This document shows, one piece after another, positions 9,361-47,296 of a stretch of 60,346 nt of DNA. The notes below the pieces were generated by a model, which saw only the letters and a program-made list of their open reading frames with translations, had not been told where the DNA came from and did no database searches. Every line of letters begins with the position of its first letter. The first letter of the stretch is position 1. The DNA lies in IMG/VR virus record IMGVR_UViG_3300045988_141393, one strand, 5' to 3'. Source of the DNA: a virus. Lineage: Duplodnaviria; Heunggongvirae; Uroviricota; Caudoviricetes. The position numbers and the translations under genes are program-made.

Positions 9361-9559
9361 CGGAATGTATGATCTGCATCATCGACTGAAGTCATCCATT
9401 GCTGAAATTTTTAGTTGATCTTCCATGTTTTCAGGCTTATATTCATGCCGTCGTAGCAAATTCTGCGACCAGGTTTGACAGCCTGAATGTTAGTGCGGAC
9501 AACCGCAGATTTCCGATATTGCGGTATTTTTGTGTCCGTAAACCGCGTTACGCCCGAAT

Positions 9560-9689
9560 TATGGTGGGGCGTGATGGGGAGGCTTCGGCCTGCTGGTTTC
9601 ACTAACGCCAGTCTGTCAACCCTGTCACGTCCTGCCACCTGTTTGACAGCGGGTAGCAGGTTGTTAAACCTGTTAGTGAGGCCGTAACT
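9560..9689 (+). ncRNA. Candidate c4-like antisense RNA / structured leader of Icd-Ant module 1
   Basis: Non-coding stretch directly upstream of icd-like ORF with hairpin CAGGTT-gtta-AACCTG, palindrome CTGTTTGACAG and complementary segments CACTAAC / GTTAGTG on the same strand. Confidence 0.3.
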
Positions 9690-20297: not shown

Positions 20298-21521
20298 GTG
20301 ACGGGAACAGCAATGAGTCAACACACTGATACTTCTAATCTGGAAATTATCTCGACAGCAATTGAAACGCTGCGCACACAAATCGCTCTTATACAGAAAC
20401 GGAATCCGGGTGATGACCTGTCAAAGCGACTGCACGAGAGTGTCATTGCCACTACAGATAACCTGGTGGCGGAAATCAACAAGCTGCTTGATGATGGGGC
20501 AGTTGATTACAATAAGCTGGTGGATCAGTTTGAGGAATACCAACAAGCCGTTAATGATGGCTTGATCCGTTTTTCACAAGTCACAGGCGTATCAGCGACA
20601 GTTGAAAGCCTGGGTGATGCAGTTAATCAATTTGCCGCGAATATGCGTAATGAGATCGGCAATCTGGAAGCGCGTCTTGAACAGGCAAATACACTGCGTA
20701 AATCTGCCGAAGCCGATTTGAACCGTTACAAAAAAGACTATCCGCCCAGCCTGACAAAGCGGCTGGATGTTGCGGAGAAGGATAACCGCGCGCTGAAAAG
20801 AGAGCGCCGGGAACTAAAAGAGCGTTTAACCAAGCTCAATCAGCAATGCATTGATTATCAAGGCGAAGGCGTCACACTGCGTAAAAAGTTGGCTACAGCG
20901 CAGAGCATTATCGAAACATTAAAGCGAGAGTGCTCACAGCTTGGTCACGATCTGAACCGTGCTTGTGGCATGGGACAAAGACCAGAGACATTTCCACTCA
21001 TGTATGATGGAAGGGATGCCATTGCCTACATCCATGAGTATCCGCACGGCCTGGTTGCGGAAACAGGGCAGCGTGGCGAAGCACTGTTGACGGCTAATTA
21101 CCATCAACAAATCAGAACCAATCGCCTGTTAACGATGGATGTGATCCCATCGGTATGGGGAACGCCGCTTTACTATCGCCTGCCGGGCTTCGAAAAGGAC
21201 TGGAATACCGACATAGACGAATGTCTCGCAGATAAAATTATGGCGTACCTGGAGACGGATTTTCCGCGCTTATATCGCCGGATTATGGACTCTAAGGATG
21301 CGCCAATCGATGAATTAAAAATGCGTCCGGAGACGCTGGAGGCAATCAAGCAGACGGAGTTTGATACTGTATTCAGTGTGGCCTGCATTCCAAGCTGTTT
21401 CCATGAAAGCATCCCGTTCATGCAAGGAGATCGTCGTCAGGAAATCATTGACGCTTGCCGGGTATGGGCGAACGAATGGGATAAGAAGAATGGGGGTGTA
21501 GAAGATCTTTATGGGAAATAA
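20298..21521 (+). CDS. Hypothetical protein with N-terminal coiled coil
   Basis: 407 aa ORF. Confidence 0.4.
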   Translation: MTGTAMSQHTDTSNLEIISTAIETLRTQIALIQKRNPGDDLSKRLHESVIATTDNLVAEINKLLDDGAVDYNKLVDQFEEYQQAVNDGLIRFSQVTGVSATVESLGDAVNQFAANMRNEIGNLEARLEQANTLRKSAEADLNRYKKDYPPSLTKRLDVAEKDNRALKRERRELKERLTKLNQQCIDYQGEGVTLRKKLATAQSIIETLKRECSQLGHDLNRACGMGQRPETFPLMYDGRDAIAYIHEYPHGLVAETGQRGEALLTANYHQQIRTNRLLTMDVIPSVWGTPLYYRLPGFEKDWNTDIDECLADKIMAYLETDFPRLYRRIMDSKDAPIDELKMRPETLEAIKQTEFDTVFSVACIPSCFHESIPFMQGDRRQEIIDACRVWANEWDKKNGGVEDLYGK

Positions 21522-22099
21522 TGTGTTAGAAATCTAAAATCACAATTCGAATGTATTGATTGTGGAGATAACTTAACATAGAATTTTCCTTGCTGGTGGG
21601 CAGTACCCACGTTTCGCTTGCTGGGCTTGATAGTCACTTATTGGTTATTGTTCGCCCACCAGCATTTAACAAATTAAAGTGTTAGAAAAGTATGGTAATG
21701 CAAGAGCACGCTTTGGCACCGTGCAGGCCAAAGTTCAGCAGGTTTAGTGCGGAAAGTGGTTTCAGAGAGAGCACTTTGCGGAGTAAACGACAATACATGT
21801 TGAGCCACGGAAGGTCTTTTTAAGGTGTTCATTGATGATGGTCCGGCAGAGAGTAACGGTACATGCTGCATCTAATCATCAATGCACATCTTCAACATTA
21901 AGGAGGCATAGGGATTTTTGTGGCGGTTACCTTTTGCCCTGAGTCTCCTTAATGTTGCGGTAATGCACCTATGCGGATGTGGCCTTGCATTGTGTCTTGA
22001 AAGAATGGGGTAAGGCCGGGGATATCCCCAGGGGGAGGCACCCCCGCTGCAACGAACAGCCACAGACGGCAGTCGAGTGATGGAAACGTGTAAAGACTT

Positions 22100-22295
22100 T
22101 AAACCTCGTTACGGCTGGCGTGGCAAACGCGACAACCGAGACAGAGCGGTGACGGGCGGAGAGAGTGCCGCATCAAGAAAGAAGCCGACTTGTGATCCCT
22201 TTCTGCGGGCATTTGAAAGTGAATCCAGCTCAGGCAGTCGGCTTCTTTCTTGTGTGAGATGTAGCGTATTTGCCCATCTTCGGGTGGGCTTTTTT
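22100..22295 (+). ncRNA. Candidate structured small RNA ending in a Rho-independent terminator
   Basis: Perfect 17-bp inverted repeat (22174..22190 / 22236..22252) and terminator GCCCA-tcttcg-GGTGGGC-TTTTTT (22272..22295); no convincing ORF. Confidence 0.25.
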
Positions 22296-22755
22296 AGGGT
22301 TTTCGTCATGGTTAGCGACTTTGCGGCGGTTTAGAAACCGACCATTAAAGTAAATGCAAACGATGATCTGATGATGGTAGCGGCCTAAGAAGCCAGACGC
22401 CACGGGGTATGAGTCGTCCCCCGTCAAAAAATCGACCGCAGAGTGTCCCCGTCTGTGTATTAGGGAACGGGGAGGCATAACAGGCAAGGGCGCTGGTGTG
22501 ATTAACCAGATGAATGAGAAGGGTCAGGTCTTTCTGGTCAGCGCCCTTACCTGTTACGTCCCTCCCGCGTAACAGCCATTGATTAATGGCTTTCTGGGAT
22601 AACATCCTACTACGGGTATATCCCGTCATGCTGAAGGCGCTAATCACGCTGGAAGCCAGGGTTGTGCATCCCCTGTTACCGAATTGCAGCCAGGGCGCGG
22701 TGCGCCGAAAAGCATACGGAGGTGGAAGCCCTCGCCGGAGACGTACCCGGCAAGT

Positions 22756-22832
22756 GATGGTGTAGCTCAGTAGGATAGAGCAGCAGCCTTCTAAGCTGTC
22801 GGTCGGTGGTTCGAATCCACCCACCATCGCCA
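22756..22832 (+). tRNA. tRNA-Arg (anticodon UCU)
   Basis: Manual cloverleaf: acceptor GATGGTG/CACCATC, D GCTC/GAGC, anticodon loop CUUCUAA, T-loop TTCGAAT, 3' CCA encoded. Confidence 0.8.
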
Positions 22833-22837
22833 ATTTA

Positions 22838-22924
22838 GGGGAGTTAGTCCGTAGGGGTAGCGGGGTAGACTGTAAATCTACTGTCATTGCGACTCGGGTG
22901 GTTCGACTCCATCACTCCCCACCA
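22838..22924 (+). tRNA. tRNA-Tyr (anticodon GUA), long variable arm
   Basis: Acceptor GGGGAGT/ACTCCCC, anticodon stem GTAGA/TCTAC with loop CTGTAAA, T-loop TTCGACT, CCA encoded. Confidence 0.7.
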
Positions 22925-22928
22925 AATT

Positions 22929-23004
22929 GCCGGTTTAGCTCAGTTGGTAGAGCGCCTGCCTTGTAAGCAGGATGTCAGCGGTTCGAGTCCGTTAACCGGC
23001 ACCA
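22929..23004 (+). tRNA. tRNA-Thr (anticodon UGU)
   Basis: Acceptor GCCGGTT/AACCGGC, anticodon stem CCTGC/GCAGG loop CTTGTAA, T-loop TTCGAGT, CCA encoded. Confidence 0.8.
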
Positions 23005-23406
23005 ACACAACAGGTAAGGGCATTCTCCCTTATGGGGCTTGGCTTAAATGCATCGAGTGCTCTTACCGTTGTGATGAAGTGCAGCTCTTTGAAGCAACCA
23101 GAAGATAAGCATCTGGCTTCACAACATAAACCGCAGGAACGACCAATAAACGGTAGTCCGTATGGAGAACACCCCGTTGAGGAAGAGGCCTGGCCGGAAC
23201 CGTAACCGGCACCACAACGTTGAGAACACTGGCGTAACGGGGTCATATCCCAATCTATGAATAAATGTTGCGTTGCAGCGTGACAACCAGTGTTCTCAAC
23301 ATTGTGGTGAATGCACAGGCTGATGTGCCGCAACTACAGTAGTGCGCGCTTTGCGGGGCTTGCTACAACCCTGTGTCGGAGTTCAGCACCGACCATCACA
23401 ATCACT

Positions 23407-23493
23407 GGAGAGTAGGGAGCATGGTGCTCAAGCGGTCTTGAAAACCGTCCCATTGCGCAAGCGATGATGGTTCGATTCCATTACTCTCCGCCA
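23407..23493 (+). tRNA. tRNA-Ser (anticodon UGA) candidate, class II
   Basis: Acceptor GGAGAGT/ACTCTCC, anticodon stem GCGGT/ACCGT loop CTTGAAA, 17-nt variable arm, T-loop TTCGATT, CCA encoded; short D-loop makes it less certain. Confidence 0.55.
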
Positions 23494-23756
23494 GTGCAAC
23501 GTTAAGAGTATTTGGCTAATTAAGCGAATGCCGGAAGCAGAACCGGATCACCAAATGCGTACAGGCGTCATCGCCGCCCAGCCAGCCAAGTGCTCTTACC
23601 ATTGCGGTGAATGCGGCTAAGCGCACGCGGAACAGTTAAAACAATCCTCCTTAGTGGTTAAGTCAAACATCCCGGCGTTAATTGTTAACTGGTTAACGTC
23701 ACCTGGAGGCACCAGGCACCGCAGCTTTTTTATTCGGTAAATAATGGAGTGAGAGG

Positions 23757-42703: not shown

Positions 42704-42745
42704 AATGTATACCGACTCTGTTTTGTTCCGAGCGGTAAAATAATA

Positions 42746-46984: not shown

Positions 46985-47087
46985 AATACTGACTGTTGCG
47001 CCCTGGCATTATCGTGGGGTATATTTCTACGGCACCTTAGAAAAACGGGTGCCGGGATTGGAACCCCGGATAATGCAAAAGGCGACA

Positions 47088-47111
47088 CAGACGCCGAAAG
47101 CGTCTTTTTTT
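47088..47111 (+). terminator. Rho-independent terminator
   Basis: GACGC-cgaaa-GCGTC followed by TTTTTTT. Confidence 0.55.
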
Positions 47112-47149
47112 GTGTCATGCCATCGCACAGCCATACGTAGCGTTTAGCT

Positions 47150-47296
47150 CAGAGATCAATGGTAGTGCTGGCTGGGCTGCCGAAAGGCAGGCCGGTTCCC
47201 TTTTGCGCCGGTAGTTCCAACCCAGTCAGTGCTACCGCCATTGAGATTGGAACCTCACGCGGTAGCTCCTTAAATTAGCAAAAGGAGGCTGCCATT
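47150..47296 (+). ncRNA. Candidate c4-like antisense RNA / structured leader of Icd-Ant module 2
   Basis: Interleaved complementary segments GTTCCAA / TTGGAAC and GCTACCGC / GCGGTAGC upstream of the icd-like start. Confidence 0.3.

What the first reader, a model, noticed from the sequence alone, without database searches (positions are those of the whole stretch)
22060..22740. Hairpin-dense non-coding stretch upstream of the tRNA cluster, including a perfect 17-bp inverted repeat and terminator
About 700 bp with only short, implausible ORFs contains a perfect 17-bp inverted repeat CAAGAAAGAAGCCGACT / AGTCGGCTTCTTTCTTG (22174..22190 and 22236..22252, 45-nt loop), a canonical terminator (22272..22295), and further stems (ACGGGG...CCCCGT near 22400..22460; AAGGGCGCTG...CAGCGCCCTT near 22480..22545). 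This looks like one or more stable small RNAs co-transcribed or processed with the tRNAs, of unknown function.
Basis: seen in the sequence. Interest (0 to 1): 0.5.

Follow-up and report, generated by a model that had tools for sequence, protein, structure and literature searches.

The report
Phage tmRNA-like tag RNA without tRNA part
The hairpin-rich stretch is the transcribed leader of a P1/D6-type phage's tRNA operon, and its core is an unannotated RNA, shared by over 200 enterobacterial phage genomes, that resembles the message half of the ribosome-rescue RNA tmRNA (a ten-codon tag ANDDLMMVAA plus two pseudoknots) but has no tRNA half.

Summary
The window is a D6-like P1-family phage-plasmid. 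The stretch lies in a 1.23-kb gene-free leader between a pmgS-like gene and tRNA-Arg. It starts at a sigma-70-like promoter flanked by two copies of a dispersed operator-like motif.

The leader is a chain of separately conserved RNA modules:
- a lineage-specific 79-nt hairpin (the 17-bp repeat) with compensatory changes;
- the terminator, shared with P1's ban-operon leader;
- a 177-nt element (22297-22473);
- a long-stem "cassette" of a repeated family;
- a P1-family 3' leader.

The 177-nt element is the main result. It has a tmRNA-type resume context (UAAAU|GCA), a 33-nt tag frame (ANDDLMMVAA-stop), a helix closing the frame's end, and two H-type pseudoknots. It recurs in P1-like, T1-like, N4-like and Ackermannviridae phages. 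On an unguided alignment 83% of cells pair, against 41-45% in controls. ARAGORN, Rfam at its thresholds and every fetched annotation miss it, and no tRNA-like domain was found anywhere.

Its invariant 5' motif is complementary to host ssrA tag codons 3-5. I infer that it acts on trans-translation; the mechanism is untested.

The parts
21520..21532 (+). Operator-like motif AATGTGTTAGAAA, copy 1, just upstream of the promoter. A candidate D6-type C1 repressor site.
   Evidence: Pattern AAWKTGTTAGAAA with at most 1 mismatch occurs 8 times in the window against 0.38 expected, 0 of 100 shuffles. It is conserved in all six homologues. P1 has C1 operators (Op72) at the equivalent promoter.
21556..21584 (+). 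Sigma-70-like promoter TTGATT-17-TAGAAT. Candidate start of the leader/tRNA operon transcript, near 21591.
   Evidence: The only promoter-like site found in 21300-23700. Both hexamers are conserved in the homologues. Function is inferred.
21676..21688 (+). Operator-like motif AAAGTGTTAGAAA, copy 2, downstream of the promoter.
   Evidence: (D4).
21700..22055 (+). D6-lineage leader module with two conserved hairpins (21819-21839/21875-21895 and 21893-21913/21937-21957) and a nearly invariant 3' part.
   Evidence: Inverted repeats I3 and I4. Conserved in six plasmids that are 80-100% identical overall. Absent from P1.
22056..22173 (+). Optional spacer module. Present in four of six homologues and cleanly deleted in two.
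   Evidence: Alignment A2.
22174..22252 (+). 79-nt hairpin: 17-bp perfect stem with an inner CUUUC/GAAAG stem. Specific to the D6 lineage.
   Evidence: I5. The stem is kept in diverged homologues by two-sided changes at 22179/22247 (A-U to U-A) and 22181/22245 (G-C to A-U to C-G).
22272..22295 (+). Intrinsic terminator/attenuator: 7-bp stem, UUCG loop, U6. This is the point where homology to the P1/P7 ban-operon leader begins.
   Evidence: In P1 it is the 3' end of the stretch annotated 'dicF-like region'.
22297..22307 (+). 5' motif GGGUUUUCGUC of the tmRNA-like element. GUUUUCG(U) is invariant across the family.
   Evidence: Alignments A3 and A4. It is the reverse complement of E. coli ssrA GACGAAAAC: a 10-11 bp duplex of -12 to -15 kcal/mol in every subfamily.
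22319..22350 (+). Domain-1 hairpin. CUUUG/UAAAG closes CGGUUUAGAAACCG. It ends 5 nt before the resume codon.
   Evidence: CUUUG/CAAAG changes to UUAUG/CAUAA in N4-like and Serratia phages (helix 2).
22356..22388 (+). Tag reading frame GCA AAC GAT GAT CTG ATG ATG GTA GCG GCC TAA = ANDDLMMVAA-stop, preceded by UAAAU. There is no start codon or Shine-Dalgarno sequence.
   Evidence: Sequence. Rfam tmRNA_permuted aligns here at 22.7-24.1 bits against a gathering score of 47. All 58 family copies have a 33-nt frame; 21 nucleotide variants encode 11 peptides.
22375..22402 (+). Helix closing the end of the frame (UGGU/GCCA), with an inner GGC/GCC hairpin that carries the stop codon in its loop. Analogous to tmRNA helix 5.
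   Evidence: helices 4 and 5. Column 87/110 is A-U in 12 sequences and G-C in 10.
22403..22436 (+). Pseudoknot A. Stem 1: CGGGG 22403-22407 with CCCCG 22419-22423. Stem 2: GUCG 22413-22416 with CGAC 22433-22436.
   Evidence: helices 6 and 7: three pairs in each stem change on both sides, for example GUCG/CGAC to CCGA/UCGG, CCAG/CUGG and CCAA/UUGG.
22439..22473 (+). Pseudoknot B. Stem 1: CAGA 22439-22442 with UCUG 22452-22455. Stem 2: UCCCCG 22446-22451 with CGGGGA 22468-22473. The loop ...GUAUUAG.../...GAUUAAUAA... is conserved. This is the 3' end of the element.
   Evidence: helices 8 and 9: two and five pairs respectively change on both sides.
22469..22565 (+). Long-stem cassette (27-nt arms, 43-nt insert). 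One member of a repeated family with arm consensus ACAACAGGTAAGGGCATTG / CAGTGCTCTTACCGTTGTG. Possibly an RNase III-type processing signal.
   Evidence: I1. Further copies at 23006-23073 and, in variant form, 23210-23309. The same arms flank variable inserts in T1-like phage contigs. The function is inferred.
22566..22755 (+). P1-family 3' leader running up to tRNA-Arg(UCU) at 22756. It contains a hairpin whose sequence is replaced while the stem is preserved (GCCATTGATTAATGGC in the window, GTGCTTAACAGCAC in P1).
   Evidence: 567 plasmid records cover at least 80% of 22296-22755.

Best explanation
The stretch is the transcribed leader of the repressor-controlled tRNA (ban-type) operon of a D6-like, P1-family phage-plasmid. 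The leader is a chain of exchangeable RNA modules.

Its core, 22297-22473, is a tmRNA-derived RNA that keeps the mRNA-like half and lacks the tRNA-like domain. The kept features are:
- the resume context UAAAU|GCA;
- a 10-codon tag ANDDLMMVAA followed by a stop codon;
- a helix closing the end of the frame;
- two H-type pseudoknots.

Likely sequence of events, all inferred:
1. When C1-type repression lifts, transcription starts near 21591.
2. Part of it stops at the terminator at 22272-22295; the rest reads through.
3. RNase E, RNase III and RNase P cut out the tRNAs and the 177-nt RNA. The long-stem cassettes and the RGUUUU motif would serve as cutting signals.
4. The RNA then acts on ribosome rescue. 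Its invariant 5' motif anneals to codons 3-5 of the host tmRNA tag frame, masking the host template.
5. The host tmRNA-SmpB complex supplies the missing tRNA-like domain, as in a natural two-piece tmRNA, so stalled chains would receive the phage tag instead of ANDENYALAA.

What is shown: the sequence features, the family distribution, the covariation, and the failure to find a tRNA-like domain with these tools. What is inferred: transcription, processing, annealing to host tmRNA, and use of the frame as a template.
For: Context:
- Window matches D6 at 95% and plasmid NZ_CP027309 at 100%.
- In P1 the homologous leader follows the C1-controlled Pban promoter and precedes trnA.
- Promoter-like site and an 8-copy operator-like motif.

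The family:
- 22296-22755 matches 206 phage records. About 186 of them are non-P1 phages that match only the first 70-190 nt. It also matches 618 plasmid records.
- In Ackermannviridae, Schitoviridae, Drexlerviridae and Buchananvirus records the element sits in unannotated gaps, in several of them upstream of tRNA or tRNA-like sequences.

Link to tmRNA:
- The best non-tRNA Rfam match is tmRNA_permuted or beta_tmRNA in the window and in five further phages.
- The resume context and the GCAAACGAU start are the same as in 52 ARAGORN-confirmed two-piece phage tmRNAs recovered by the same scan. The tag ANDNAFLMAA occurs in both groups.

Structure:
- 83.3% of cells pair, against 41-45% with slid partners.
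- 16 pairs change on both sides, against 6-12 in controls.
- 0 of 500 shuffles reach the observed value.
- Both pseudoknots are included in this count.

Reading frame:
- All 58 copies are 33 nt, and 133 of 134 pattern matches are in frame.
- ANDDVVLMAA is encoded by 7 different nucleotide sequences and ANDDLMLMAA by 5.

Independent gene: in phage Sa179lw a TTGACA-17-TAGATT promoter sits directly upstream of the element.

5' motif against host ssrA.
Against: - No tRNA-like domain was found in cis or elsewhere in the 60-kb window. No known route therefore puts this frame into a ribosome.
- Rfam scores are far below gathering (22-33 bits against 47). Similarity to E. coli ssrA outside the tag is not significant (score 32 against a shuffle mean of 27, sd 4.5).
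- The evidence for peptide-level selection is modest. My search pattern fixed parts of the frame; at unconstrained positions single-step changes are 5 synonymous to 6 non-synonymous.
- The 5' motif has simpler readings. It fits an RNase E-type site plus a small stem (the RNase E consensus is recalled from my own knowledge, not tested). In one T1-like subgroup it is also the 3' arm of the upstream cassette stem.
- Host-motif covariation could not be tested.
- The single-sequence fold of the element is unremarkable (z = -1.2).
- There are no expression data.
Confidence: 0.45

Rival explanations
1. Antisense or decoy only. The RNA is a tmRNA-derived small RNA whose job is to bind and silence host tmRNA, or to soak up SmpB, S1 or RNase R. 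Its own tag frame is never translated. The frame would be conserved because it is part of the mimic, or as an evolutionary leftover.
For: The invariant GUUUUCGU is complementary to ssrA GACGAAAAC. In T1-like and P1-like forms the pairing extends towards the resume codon through GUUAGC. The absence of a tRNA-like domain then needs no explanation.
Against: A pure antisense RNA has no need for an intact 33-nt frame, a stop codon in the hairpin loop, degron-like endings (...MAA...VAA...AVA), or silent third-position changes. All of these are kept across four phage families.
Confidence: 0.2
2. Cis-acting leader only. The hairpins, terminator and pseudoknots control read-through into the tRNAs and ban-type genes, or guide nuclease processing of the tRNA precursor. 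The tmRNA-like part is a relic carried along with a mobile tRNA module and has no function in trans.
For: It always lies in tRNA-rich or small-RNA regions. Long-stem cassettes shared between P1-like and T1-like phages point to modular exchange. A terminator sits in the middle of the leader.
Against: A relic would not keep two pseudoknots by compensatory change, nor an open frame, at about 70% identity across unrelated phage families. Sa179lw and a Pantoea prophage give it its own strong promoter. ESP2949-1 and Sa179lw carry it with no tRNA nearby.
Confidence: 0.2
3. A complete but unrecognised split tmRNA. The tRNA-like domain is encoded separately. Candidates are the anticodon-arm-less tRNA-like cassettes next to the element in T1-like and Kuttervirus genomes, or something in the third of the P1/D6 genome outside this window. 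It would pair with the coding RNA.
For: Inserts with a T arm and a long acceptor-like stem lie directly beside the element in L033, L040, L081 and L013. Two-piece tmRNAs are common in phages (PMC9004378).
Against: The window has no such cassette and no T arm plus CCA apart from its five tRNAs. No sequence complementary to the 5' motif was found in the window or the fetched loci. The cassettes lack an encoded CCA and a G3:U70 pair in register (sequence).
Confidence: 0.1
4. A DicF-like Hfq-dependent small RNA, as the P1 annotation ('dicF-like region') might suggest: hairpin plus terminator acting on ftsZ or other host mRNAs.
For: P1 annotates 68791-68892 as dicF-like, and the window shares its terminator. 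A hairpin followed by a U-tailed terminator is the usual 3' end of an Hfq-binding small RNA.
Against: The window shares only the last ~38 nt of that P1 stretch. The upstream part is replaced by the unrelated 79-nt hairpin. There is no DicF match even at E <= 10.
Confidence: 0.05

Closest known systems
Two-piece (circularly permuted) tmRNAs of phages and Alpha/Betaproteobacteria (Rfam RF04321 tmRNA_permuted, RF01850 beta_tmRNA; for example phage Melnitz, PMC9004378)
   Same: Resume context (G/A)UAAAU|GCAAACGAU. A 10-12-codon tag of the form AND...(L/M/V)(A/V)A, with the identical tag ANDNAFLMAA in both groups. The stop codon lies in a hairpin. An H-type pseudoknot follows directly after the frame. 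Located in phages. This is the best Rfam match in all six phages tested.
   Different: No acceptor piece and no acceptor 5' strand or D-loop analogue. ARAGORN, which calls the 52 two-piece genes from the same scan, calls none of the 58 copies of this family. Scores are below gathering. A simple hairpin stands where pseudoknot 1 would be. Found only in phages and prophages of Enterobacterales, plus one Alteromonas-phage-like contig.
Host one-piece tmRNA (SsrA, RF00023)
   Same: The overall order: upstream structure, then tag frame, then closing helix, then pseudoknots. The tag starts with the same three residues (AND) and ends in AA.
   Different: About 177 nt against 363 nt. No tRNA-like domain, no P2 helix, two pseudoknots instead of four. 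Sequence similarity is not significant outside the tag. Codons 3-5 differ exactly where the phage 5' motif is complementary to the host.
P1 ban-operon leader (Pban/Op72 ... 'dicF-like region' ... trnA, trnT), NC_005856
   Same: From the terminator (22269) to the tRNAs the window is about 91% identical to P1. It holds the same position downstream of a repressor-controlled promoter.
   Different: Upstream of the terminator the window carries a 750-nt D6-lineage leader instead of P1's 170 nt. The upstream gene differs (pmgS-like, not dmt). The operator motif differs. P1's annotation has no RNA feature over the tmRNA-like element.
Stable small RNAs co-transcribed with phage tRNAs (T4 species 1 and 2 RNAs; recalled from my own knowledge, not tested)
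   Same: Small structured RNAs embedded in a phage tRNA transcription unit and presumably released by the tRNA-processing nucleases.
   Different: No sequence relationship was examined. The T4 RNAs have no tag frame.
GOLLD and ROOL large structured RNAs of phages, often next to tRNAs
   Same: Structured non-coding RNA beside tRNA genes in phage genomes.
   Different: No Rfam match at E <= 10. Here the leader is a mosaic of small modules, not one large fold.

Membership tests
tmRNA (one-piece or two-piece) | tRNA-like domain: acceptor stem with G3:U70, T arm, 3' CCA, chargeable with alanine | tested here: not met
   ARAGORN finds no tmRNA in the window or in any family member. A scan for T arm + 7 nt + NCCA across the whole window returns only the five tRNAs. 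Charging itself cannot be tested here.
tmRNA (one-piece or two-piece) | Internal tag reading frame that begins at a resume codon (usually GCA), has no start codon, ends at an in-frame stop, and encodes a hydrophobic ...AA-type C-terminus | tested here: met
   22356-22388 encodes ANDDLMMVAA-stop. All 58 copies are 33 nt. The tags are AND(D/E/N)....(A/V)A.
tmRNA (one-piece or two-piece) | Pseudoknots around the frame and a helix holding the stop codon, supported by covariation | tested here: met
   Two downstream H-type pseudoknots and the closing helix covary. The upstream pseudoknot is replaced by a hairpin.
tmRNA (one-piece or two-piece) | Score at or above the Rfam gathering threshold for a tmRNA model | tested here: not met
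   tmRNA_permuted scores 22.7-24.1 bits in the window and 22.5-33.4 bits in the other phages, against a gathering score of 47. beta_tmRNA scores 11.6-21.5 against 84.
tmRNA (one-piece or two-piece) | Binds SmpB and tags stalled nascent chains | not testable with these tools
   Needs biochemistry or mass spectrometry.
DicF small RNA (RF00039) | Match to the DicF covariance model, and a seed pairing with ftsZ | tested here: not met
   No DicF match at E <= 10 in 21400-23700. Only the terminator of P1's 'dicF-like region' is shared. Pairing with ftsZ was not examined.
Intrinsic (Rho-independent) terminator | G+C-rich stem-loop directly followed by a U run, on the transcribed strand | tested here: met
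   22272-22289 has 7 pairs, 5 of them G-C, a UUCG loop, then T6. Conserved in P1, P7, D6 and six plasmids. Termination efficiency is untested.
C1-repressor-controlled ban/tRNA operon leader of P1-type phages | Sigma-70 promoter overlapped or flanked by repressor operators, followed by a long untranslated leader, tRNA genes, tciA-like genes and a ban-type helicase gene | tested here: inconclusive
   The promoter-like site, the two flanking copies of a motif found 8 times in the window, and the tRNAs in the same orientation are present. D6 has tciA/tciB-like genes downstream. That the motif is the D6 repressor's operator is inferred by analogy with P1 Op72.
GOLLD / ROOL | Match to the family covariance model | tested here: not met
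   No match at E <= 10.

The most novel reading that the evidence does not exclude
Enterobacterial phages of at least four families, the classic P1 among them, make a 'headless' tmRNA. This is a tag template with no tRNA-like domain. It would dock by an invariant 5' seed onto the tag codons of the host's own tmRNA and use the host's alanine-charged tRNA-like domain and SmpB. The result would be a hybrid two-piece tmRNA that rewrites the degradation tag added to stalled proteins during infection, from ANDENYALAA to ANDDLMMVAA, ANDDVVLMAA and the like.
Probability: 0.2. Interest if true: 0.95.

Novelty: new variant of a known kind. Interest (0 to 1): 0.72.

Why it matters
P1 is one of the most thoroughly annotated phages, and its ban-operon leader has been treated as featureless apart from a "dicF-like" note. 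This work finds there a conserved RNA with the hallmarks of a trans-translation template but without the part that makes tmRNA work, and finds the same RNA in T1-like, N4-like and ViI-like phages.

If the frame is used, ribosome rescue can be reprogrammed by a separate template RNA. That would be a new way for a virus to take over host quality control, and a natural example of a tag template supplied in trans.

If the RNA only blocks host tmRNA, it would be, as far as I could find in the held literature, the first phage antagonist of tmRNA.

Either reading can be tested directly in E. coli with P1. In practice, more than 200 phage genomes and over 600 phage-plasmids carry an RNA gene that standard annotation tools miss.

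Tried and rejected
Protein-coding reading
- ORFs in 21522-22755 have no Pfam or PHROG match.
- The most gene-like one is 21918-22013: a 31-aa hydrophobic peptide behind AAGGAGG. It is frameshifted in the E. fergusonii homologue and has no in-frame start codon in pSa1423, while the overlapping RNA stems covary. I rejected it as the main feature and list it under things noticed.

Known RNA families
- DicF, GOLLD, ROOL and all other Rfam families: nothing beyond tRNAs and weak tmRNA matches.

Search for a tRNA-like domain
- ARAGORN and a custom scan for T arm plus CCA found none.
- I inspected the P1 3' leader by eye. GAAGCCC at 22725-22731 could pair with GGGCUUU at 22286-22292, but no T arm precedes it and no CCA follows it.
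- I inspected the neighbouring tRNA-like cassettes. None is convincing.

Search for a phage-encoded partner of the 5' motif: none found.

Recent capture of host ssrA: rejected. Similarity outside the tag is not significant.

Full-length duplex prediction against ssrA: uninformative, because shuffled sequences score better.

Host-motif covariation
- The only non-enteric relative (L090) is close to Alteromonas phage P24.
- I could not obtain Alteromonas ssrA. Two attempts to assign hosts to contigs carrying ANDETYALAA-type tmRNAs failed.

Literature: no paper in the held library mentions these tags, a P1 tmRNA-like RNA, or a phage inhibitor of trans-translation. The 2004 P1 genome paper could not be opened.
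Full report
**1. The observation**

- The perfect 17-bp inverted repeat lies at 22174-22190 / 22236-22252, with 45 nt between the arms.
- The hairpin GCCCAUC-UUCG-GGGUGGGC at 22272-22289 is followed by six T.
- There are two ACGGGG/CCCCGU helices between 22402 and 22472.
- The AAGGGCGCTG/CAGCGCCCTT stem is part of a 27-nt-arm repeat at 22469-22495 / 22539-22565.

The gene-free gap is larger than reported. It runs from the stop codon of a pmgS-like gene (21521) to tRNA-Arg(UCU) at 22756.

The short ORFs inside it have no Pfam or PHROG match and are not preserved in homologues. Both halves of the gap fold better than shuffled sequence, with z = -4.7 and z = -3.4.

**2. Context**

The window is a D6-like member of the P1 family of phage-plasmids.
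- It is 95% identical to phage D6 over 21500-23600.
- It is 100% identical to E. coli plasmid NZ_CP027309 over 21522-22300.

In P1 the homologous position is the untranslated leader of the ban operon. That leader starts at the C1-controlled promoter Pban (operator Op72), contains a stretch annotated "dicF-like region", and runs into trnA and trnT. Homology to P1 and P7 begins exactly at the terminator (22269) and continues to the tRNAs. Everything upstream of the terminator is specific to the D6 lineage.

At the start of the gap there is one sigma-70-like site, TTGATT-17-TAGAAT at 21556-21584. It is flanked by two copies of the motif AAWKTGTTAGAAA. With one mismatch allowed, that motif occurs eight times in the window against 0.38 expected. 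By analogy with the dispersed C1 operators of P1, I read these as the repressor sites of this lineage. This is an inference.

**3. The leader is a mosaic**

An alignment of six plasmids that are 80-100% identical shows modules that come and go independently:
- a conserved block at 21700-22055 with two hairpins;
- a 118-nt spacer (22056-22173) that two plasmids lack;
- the 79-nt hairpin;
- in three plasmids only, an inserted copy of the P1-type segment before the terminator;
- the terminator itself;
- the part shared with P1.

The 17-bp stem is maintained by two-sided changes at two positions: A-U to U-A, and G-C to A-U to C-G. The inner stem changes from CUUUC/GAAAG to CUUCU/AGAAG. The hairpin is therefore selected, but only within this lineage, and its role is unknown.

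Rfam finds nothing in the whole gap except the tRNAs and weak tmRNA matches. DicF, GOLLD and ROOL are absent even at E <= 10. Only the terminator of P1's "dicF-like region" is present here.

**4. The main finding**

A sensitive DNA search with 22296-22755 hit 206 phage records. Twenty cover most of the query; these are P1, P7, D6, RCS47, SJ46 and similar phages. The rest match only the first 70-190 nt at 70-89% identity. They belong to unrelated groups:
- Ackermannviridae (Serratia 3M, Salmonella PhiSH19, Shigella Ag3);
- N4-like Schitoviridae (Bp4);
- Drexlerviridae and other T1-like siphoviruses (ESP2949-1, Sa179lw);
- Klebsiella phages.

SSU5-sized Klebsiella plasmids match as well.

In the records I opened, the matching stretch is unannotated and lies in a gap, in several of them upstream of tRNA genes.

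The conserved core reads: GUUUUCGU...GCGACUUUGCGG...UUUAGAAAC.GACCA..AAAG.UAAAU GCA AAC GAU GAU CUG AUG AUG GUA GCG GCC UAA.

That is a tmRNA-style tag frame, ANDDLMMVAA-stop, at window 22356-22388. Other phages encode ANDDVVLMAA, ANDDLMLMAA, ANDEQFLAVA, ANDNAFLMAA and ANDNTFLAVA.

Two Rfam results had pointed the same way. The best non-tRNA match here is the permuted-tmRNA model (22.7-24.1 bits, E = 0.004-0.02), and its alignment covers exactly this frame. The same model, or the betaproteobacterial two-piece model, is also the best non-tRNA match in five other phages. All of these scores are below the curated thresholds.

**5. Two groups in viral contigs**

A pattern scan of IMG/VR for the tag start and end returned two groups.
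- The first group consists of 52 loci, which ARAGORN recognises as circularly permuted (two-piece) tmRNAs. This kind is already known from marine phages (PMC9004378).
- The second group is the present family, with 58 copies. It has the same resume context and partly the same tags, but ARAGORN recognises none of the copies.

A scan of one genome per bacterial species found the family only in Enterobacterales: Escherichia, Pseudocitrobacter, Rouxiella, Erwinia, Rosenbergiella and Pantoea. In Sa179lw and in the Pantoea copy a strong promoter, TTGACA-17-TAGATT, sits immediately upstream. There the element is a self-standing gene whose RNA starts about ten nucleotides before GUUUUCG.

**6. Structure**

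I derived a structure from the T1-like sequences:
- a small 5' hairpin;
- an extended hairpin that ends 5 nt before the resume codon;
- a helix that closes the last codons and presents the stop codon in an inner loop;
- two H-type pseudoknots.

I counted it on a MAFFT alignment of 23 sequences from four phage groups. That alignment was not fitted to the structure. Results:

| Measure | Proposed structure | Controls with slid partners |
|---|---|---|
| Cells forming a standard pair | 83.3% | 41-45% |
| Pairs with a change on both sides | 16 | 6-12 |
| Cells with a change on both sides | 71 | 7-28 |

None of 500 shuffles reaches the observed values. Both pseudoknot stems that cross other helices covary, for example GUCG/CGAC to CCGA/UCGG to CCAG/CUGG.

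The single-sequence fold is not exceptional (z = -1.2), as expected for pseudoknots. In window coordinates the element is 22297-22473.

**7. Is the frame read?**

Evidence that it is:
- All 58 copies keep a 33-nt frame.
- 133 of 134 pattern matches are in frame.
- 21 nucleotide variants encode 11 peptides.
- ANDDVVLMAA is written in seven ways and ANDDLMLMAA in five, differing at third positions.
- Non-synonymous single steps are conservative: D/N, E/D, M/L, V/A, M/I.

A caution applies. My search pattern fixed parts of the frame. At positions the pattern left free, single steps are 5 synonymous to 6 non-synonymous, which is only suggestive.

There is no start codon or Shine-Dalgarno sequence in frame, so ordinary initiation is unlikely.

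**8. The missing half**

No tRNA-like domain was found.
- ARAGORN is negative throughout.
- A scan of the whole window for a T arm followed by seven bases and NCCA returns only the five tRNAs.
- The transcript in Sa179lw starts too close to the element to hold an acceptor strand.
- The sequences that follow the element differ between phages.

Some T1-like and Kuttervirus genomes have, right beside the element, cassettes with a T arm and a long acceptor-like stem but no anticodon arm. These lack an encoded CCA and are absent from the window.

By the defining test, then, this is not a tmRNA. It is a relative that keeps only the template half.

**9. The 5' motif**

GUUUUCG(U) is invariant in the family. 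It is the reverse complement of E. coli ssrA GACGAAAAC, codons 3-5 of the host tag. With its flanks it gives a 10-11-bp duplex of -12 to -15 kcal/mol in every subgroup. In P1-like and T1-like forms a further GUUAGC could pair with the host GCAAAC. The phage's own tags differ from the host tag at exactly these codons.

The chance that a given 8-mer is complementary to some site in a 33-nt frame is about 4 in 10,000. I noticed this after the fact, and simpler readings exist. The motif fits an RNase E-type site plus a stem (the RNase E consensus is recalled from my own knowledge, not tested). In one T1-like subgroup it is also the 3' arm of the upstream cassette stem.

The one non-enteric relative is a contig 98% identical in neighbouring genes to Alteromonas phage P24. 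Its motif is AAGUUUCGUUGUUU, which would pair over 14 nt with a tag beginning AAACGACGAAACUU. Real tmRNAs with that tag start exist. I could not obtain Alteromonas ssrA, so this remains a prediction.

**10. Interpretation**

What is shown:
- a widespread, structured phage RNA related to the tmRNA template;
- no tRNA-like domain found with these tools;
- in this window, a position inside a probably repressor-controlled tRNA operon leader, between a terminator and a long-stem cassette.

What I infer, at about 0.45 overall: the RNA is released together with the tRNAs during lytic growth and acts on trans-translation. The most coherent version is that it docks on host tmRNA and supplies its own tag frame.

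The rivals are:
- antisense or decoy action without translation of the frame (0.2);
- a purely cis-acting leader or relic (0.2);
- an unrecognised separate acceptor RNA (0.1);
- a DicF-like small RNA (0.05).

The other structures in the finding are ordinary by comparison:
- a lineage-specific hairpin of unknown role;
- a conserved attenuator;
- one copy of a repeated long-stem cassette, which probably marks processing sites.

**11. Novelty**

Phage tmRNAs, including two-piece ones, are known. I found no description of a tmRNA-like template without a tRNA-like domain, in P1 or anywhere else, in the held literature. None of the fetched annotations marks it.

The literature search was limited: the 2004 P1 genome paper and the specialised tmRNA databases could not be consulted.

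I file this as a new variant of a known kind.

Noticed in passing
window 9437-9642 and 47032-47242: There are two C4 antisense-RNA genes: 9557-9642, with its a1/b1 target at 9437-9489, and 47155-47242, with an isrK-like RNA at 47032-47110. That suggests two immunity-I-type regions within one 60-kb window.
   Followed up: no
window 20271, 21520, 21676, 32318, 42742, 42767, 46487, 57744: The dispersed motif AAWKTGTTAGAAA has 8 copies against 0.38 expected. Two copies are inverted and 25 nt apart at 42742/42767. It is probably the operator of this lineage's C1-type repressor and differs from the P1 operator ATTGCTCTAATAAATTT.
   Followed up: partly
window 21901-22013: AAGGAGG is followed 10 nt later by a TTG-initiated 31-codon hydrophobic ORF (MWRLPFALSLLNVAVMHLCGCGLALCLERMG). 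The ribosome-binding site and start codon are buried in a 15-bp stem, which resembles a type I toxin mRNA. The frame is kept with different codons in plasmid MINF_7C. It is frameshifted in the E. fergusonii copy and has no in-frame start codon in pSa1423. No family match.
   Followed up: partly
window 22756-22924, compared with L001 4257-4410: The first tRNA slot is variable. This window has Arg(UCU) + Tyr(GUA) + Thr, whereas D6 and P1 have Asn + Thr and other plasmids have Arg + Thr. The Arg and Tyr genes resemble those of ~135-kb coliphages.
   Followed up: no
window 22469-22565, 23006-23073, 23210-23309; L030, L033, L040: A family of long-stem cassettes has conserved arms (ACAACAGGTAAGGGCATTG / CAGTGCTCTTACCGTTGTG) and hypervariable inserts. 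It is shared between the P1-family tRNA region and T1-like phages. One whole cassette (window 23006-23073) and the stretch 23518-23585 recur nearly unchanged in T1-like contig L030.
   Followed up: partly
L033 ~515-600, L040 ~245-335 (coordinates); L013 1818-1905: Some cassettes hold an insert resembling a tRNA without an anticodon arm: a D-like hairpin, a T arm GGGTTCGAATCCC, and a long acceptor-like stem. No CCA is encoded. They lie directly beside the tmRNA-like element in T1-like and Kuttervirus genomes.
   Followed up: partly
L013 1691-1806 (Salmonella phage PhiSH19): A tRNA-like sequence of about 115 nt with acceptor GCCGUU/AACGGC, T arm GGGUUCGACUCCC, an encoded UCCA end and a large internal insertion. 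ARAGORN does not call it and the record does not annotate it.
   Followed up: no
window 23406-23493: tRNA-Ser(UGA) scores 44.6 bits on the selenocysteine-tRNA model, just under its threshold of 47. The D6 record notes that tRNAscan did not call its amino acid.
   Followed up: no
L002 3618-4187 (P1 plp, upl): The P1 genes plp and upl are annotated on the strand opposite to the tRNA operon, and plp overlaps trnT. The homologous stretch in this window is filled with conserved hairpin cassettes, so these two genes may be misannotations.
   Followed up: no
L005 (pSa1423-90k): This plasmid record differs from its relatives by many single-base indels throughout the leader. That looks like sequencing error rather than divergence, so I gave it little weight.
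   Followed up: no
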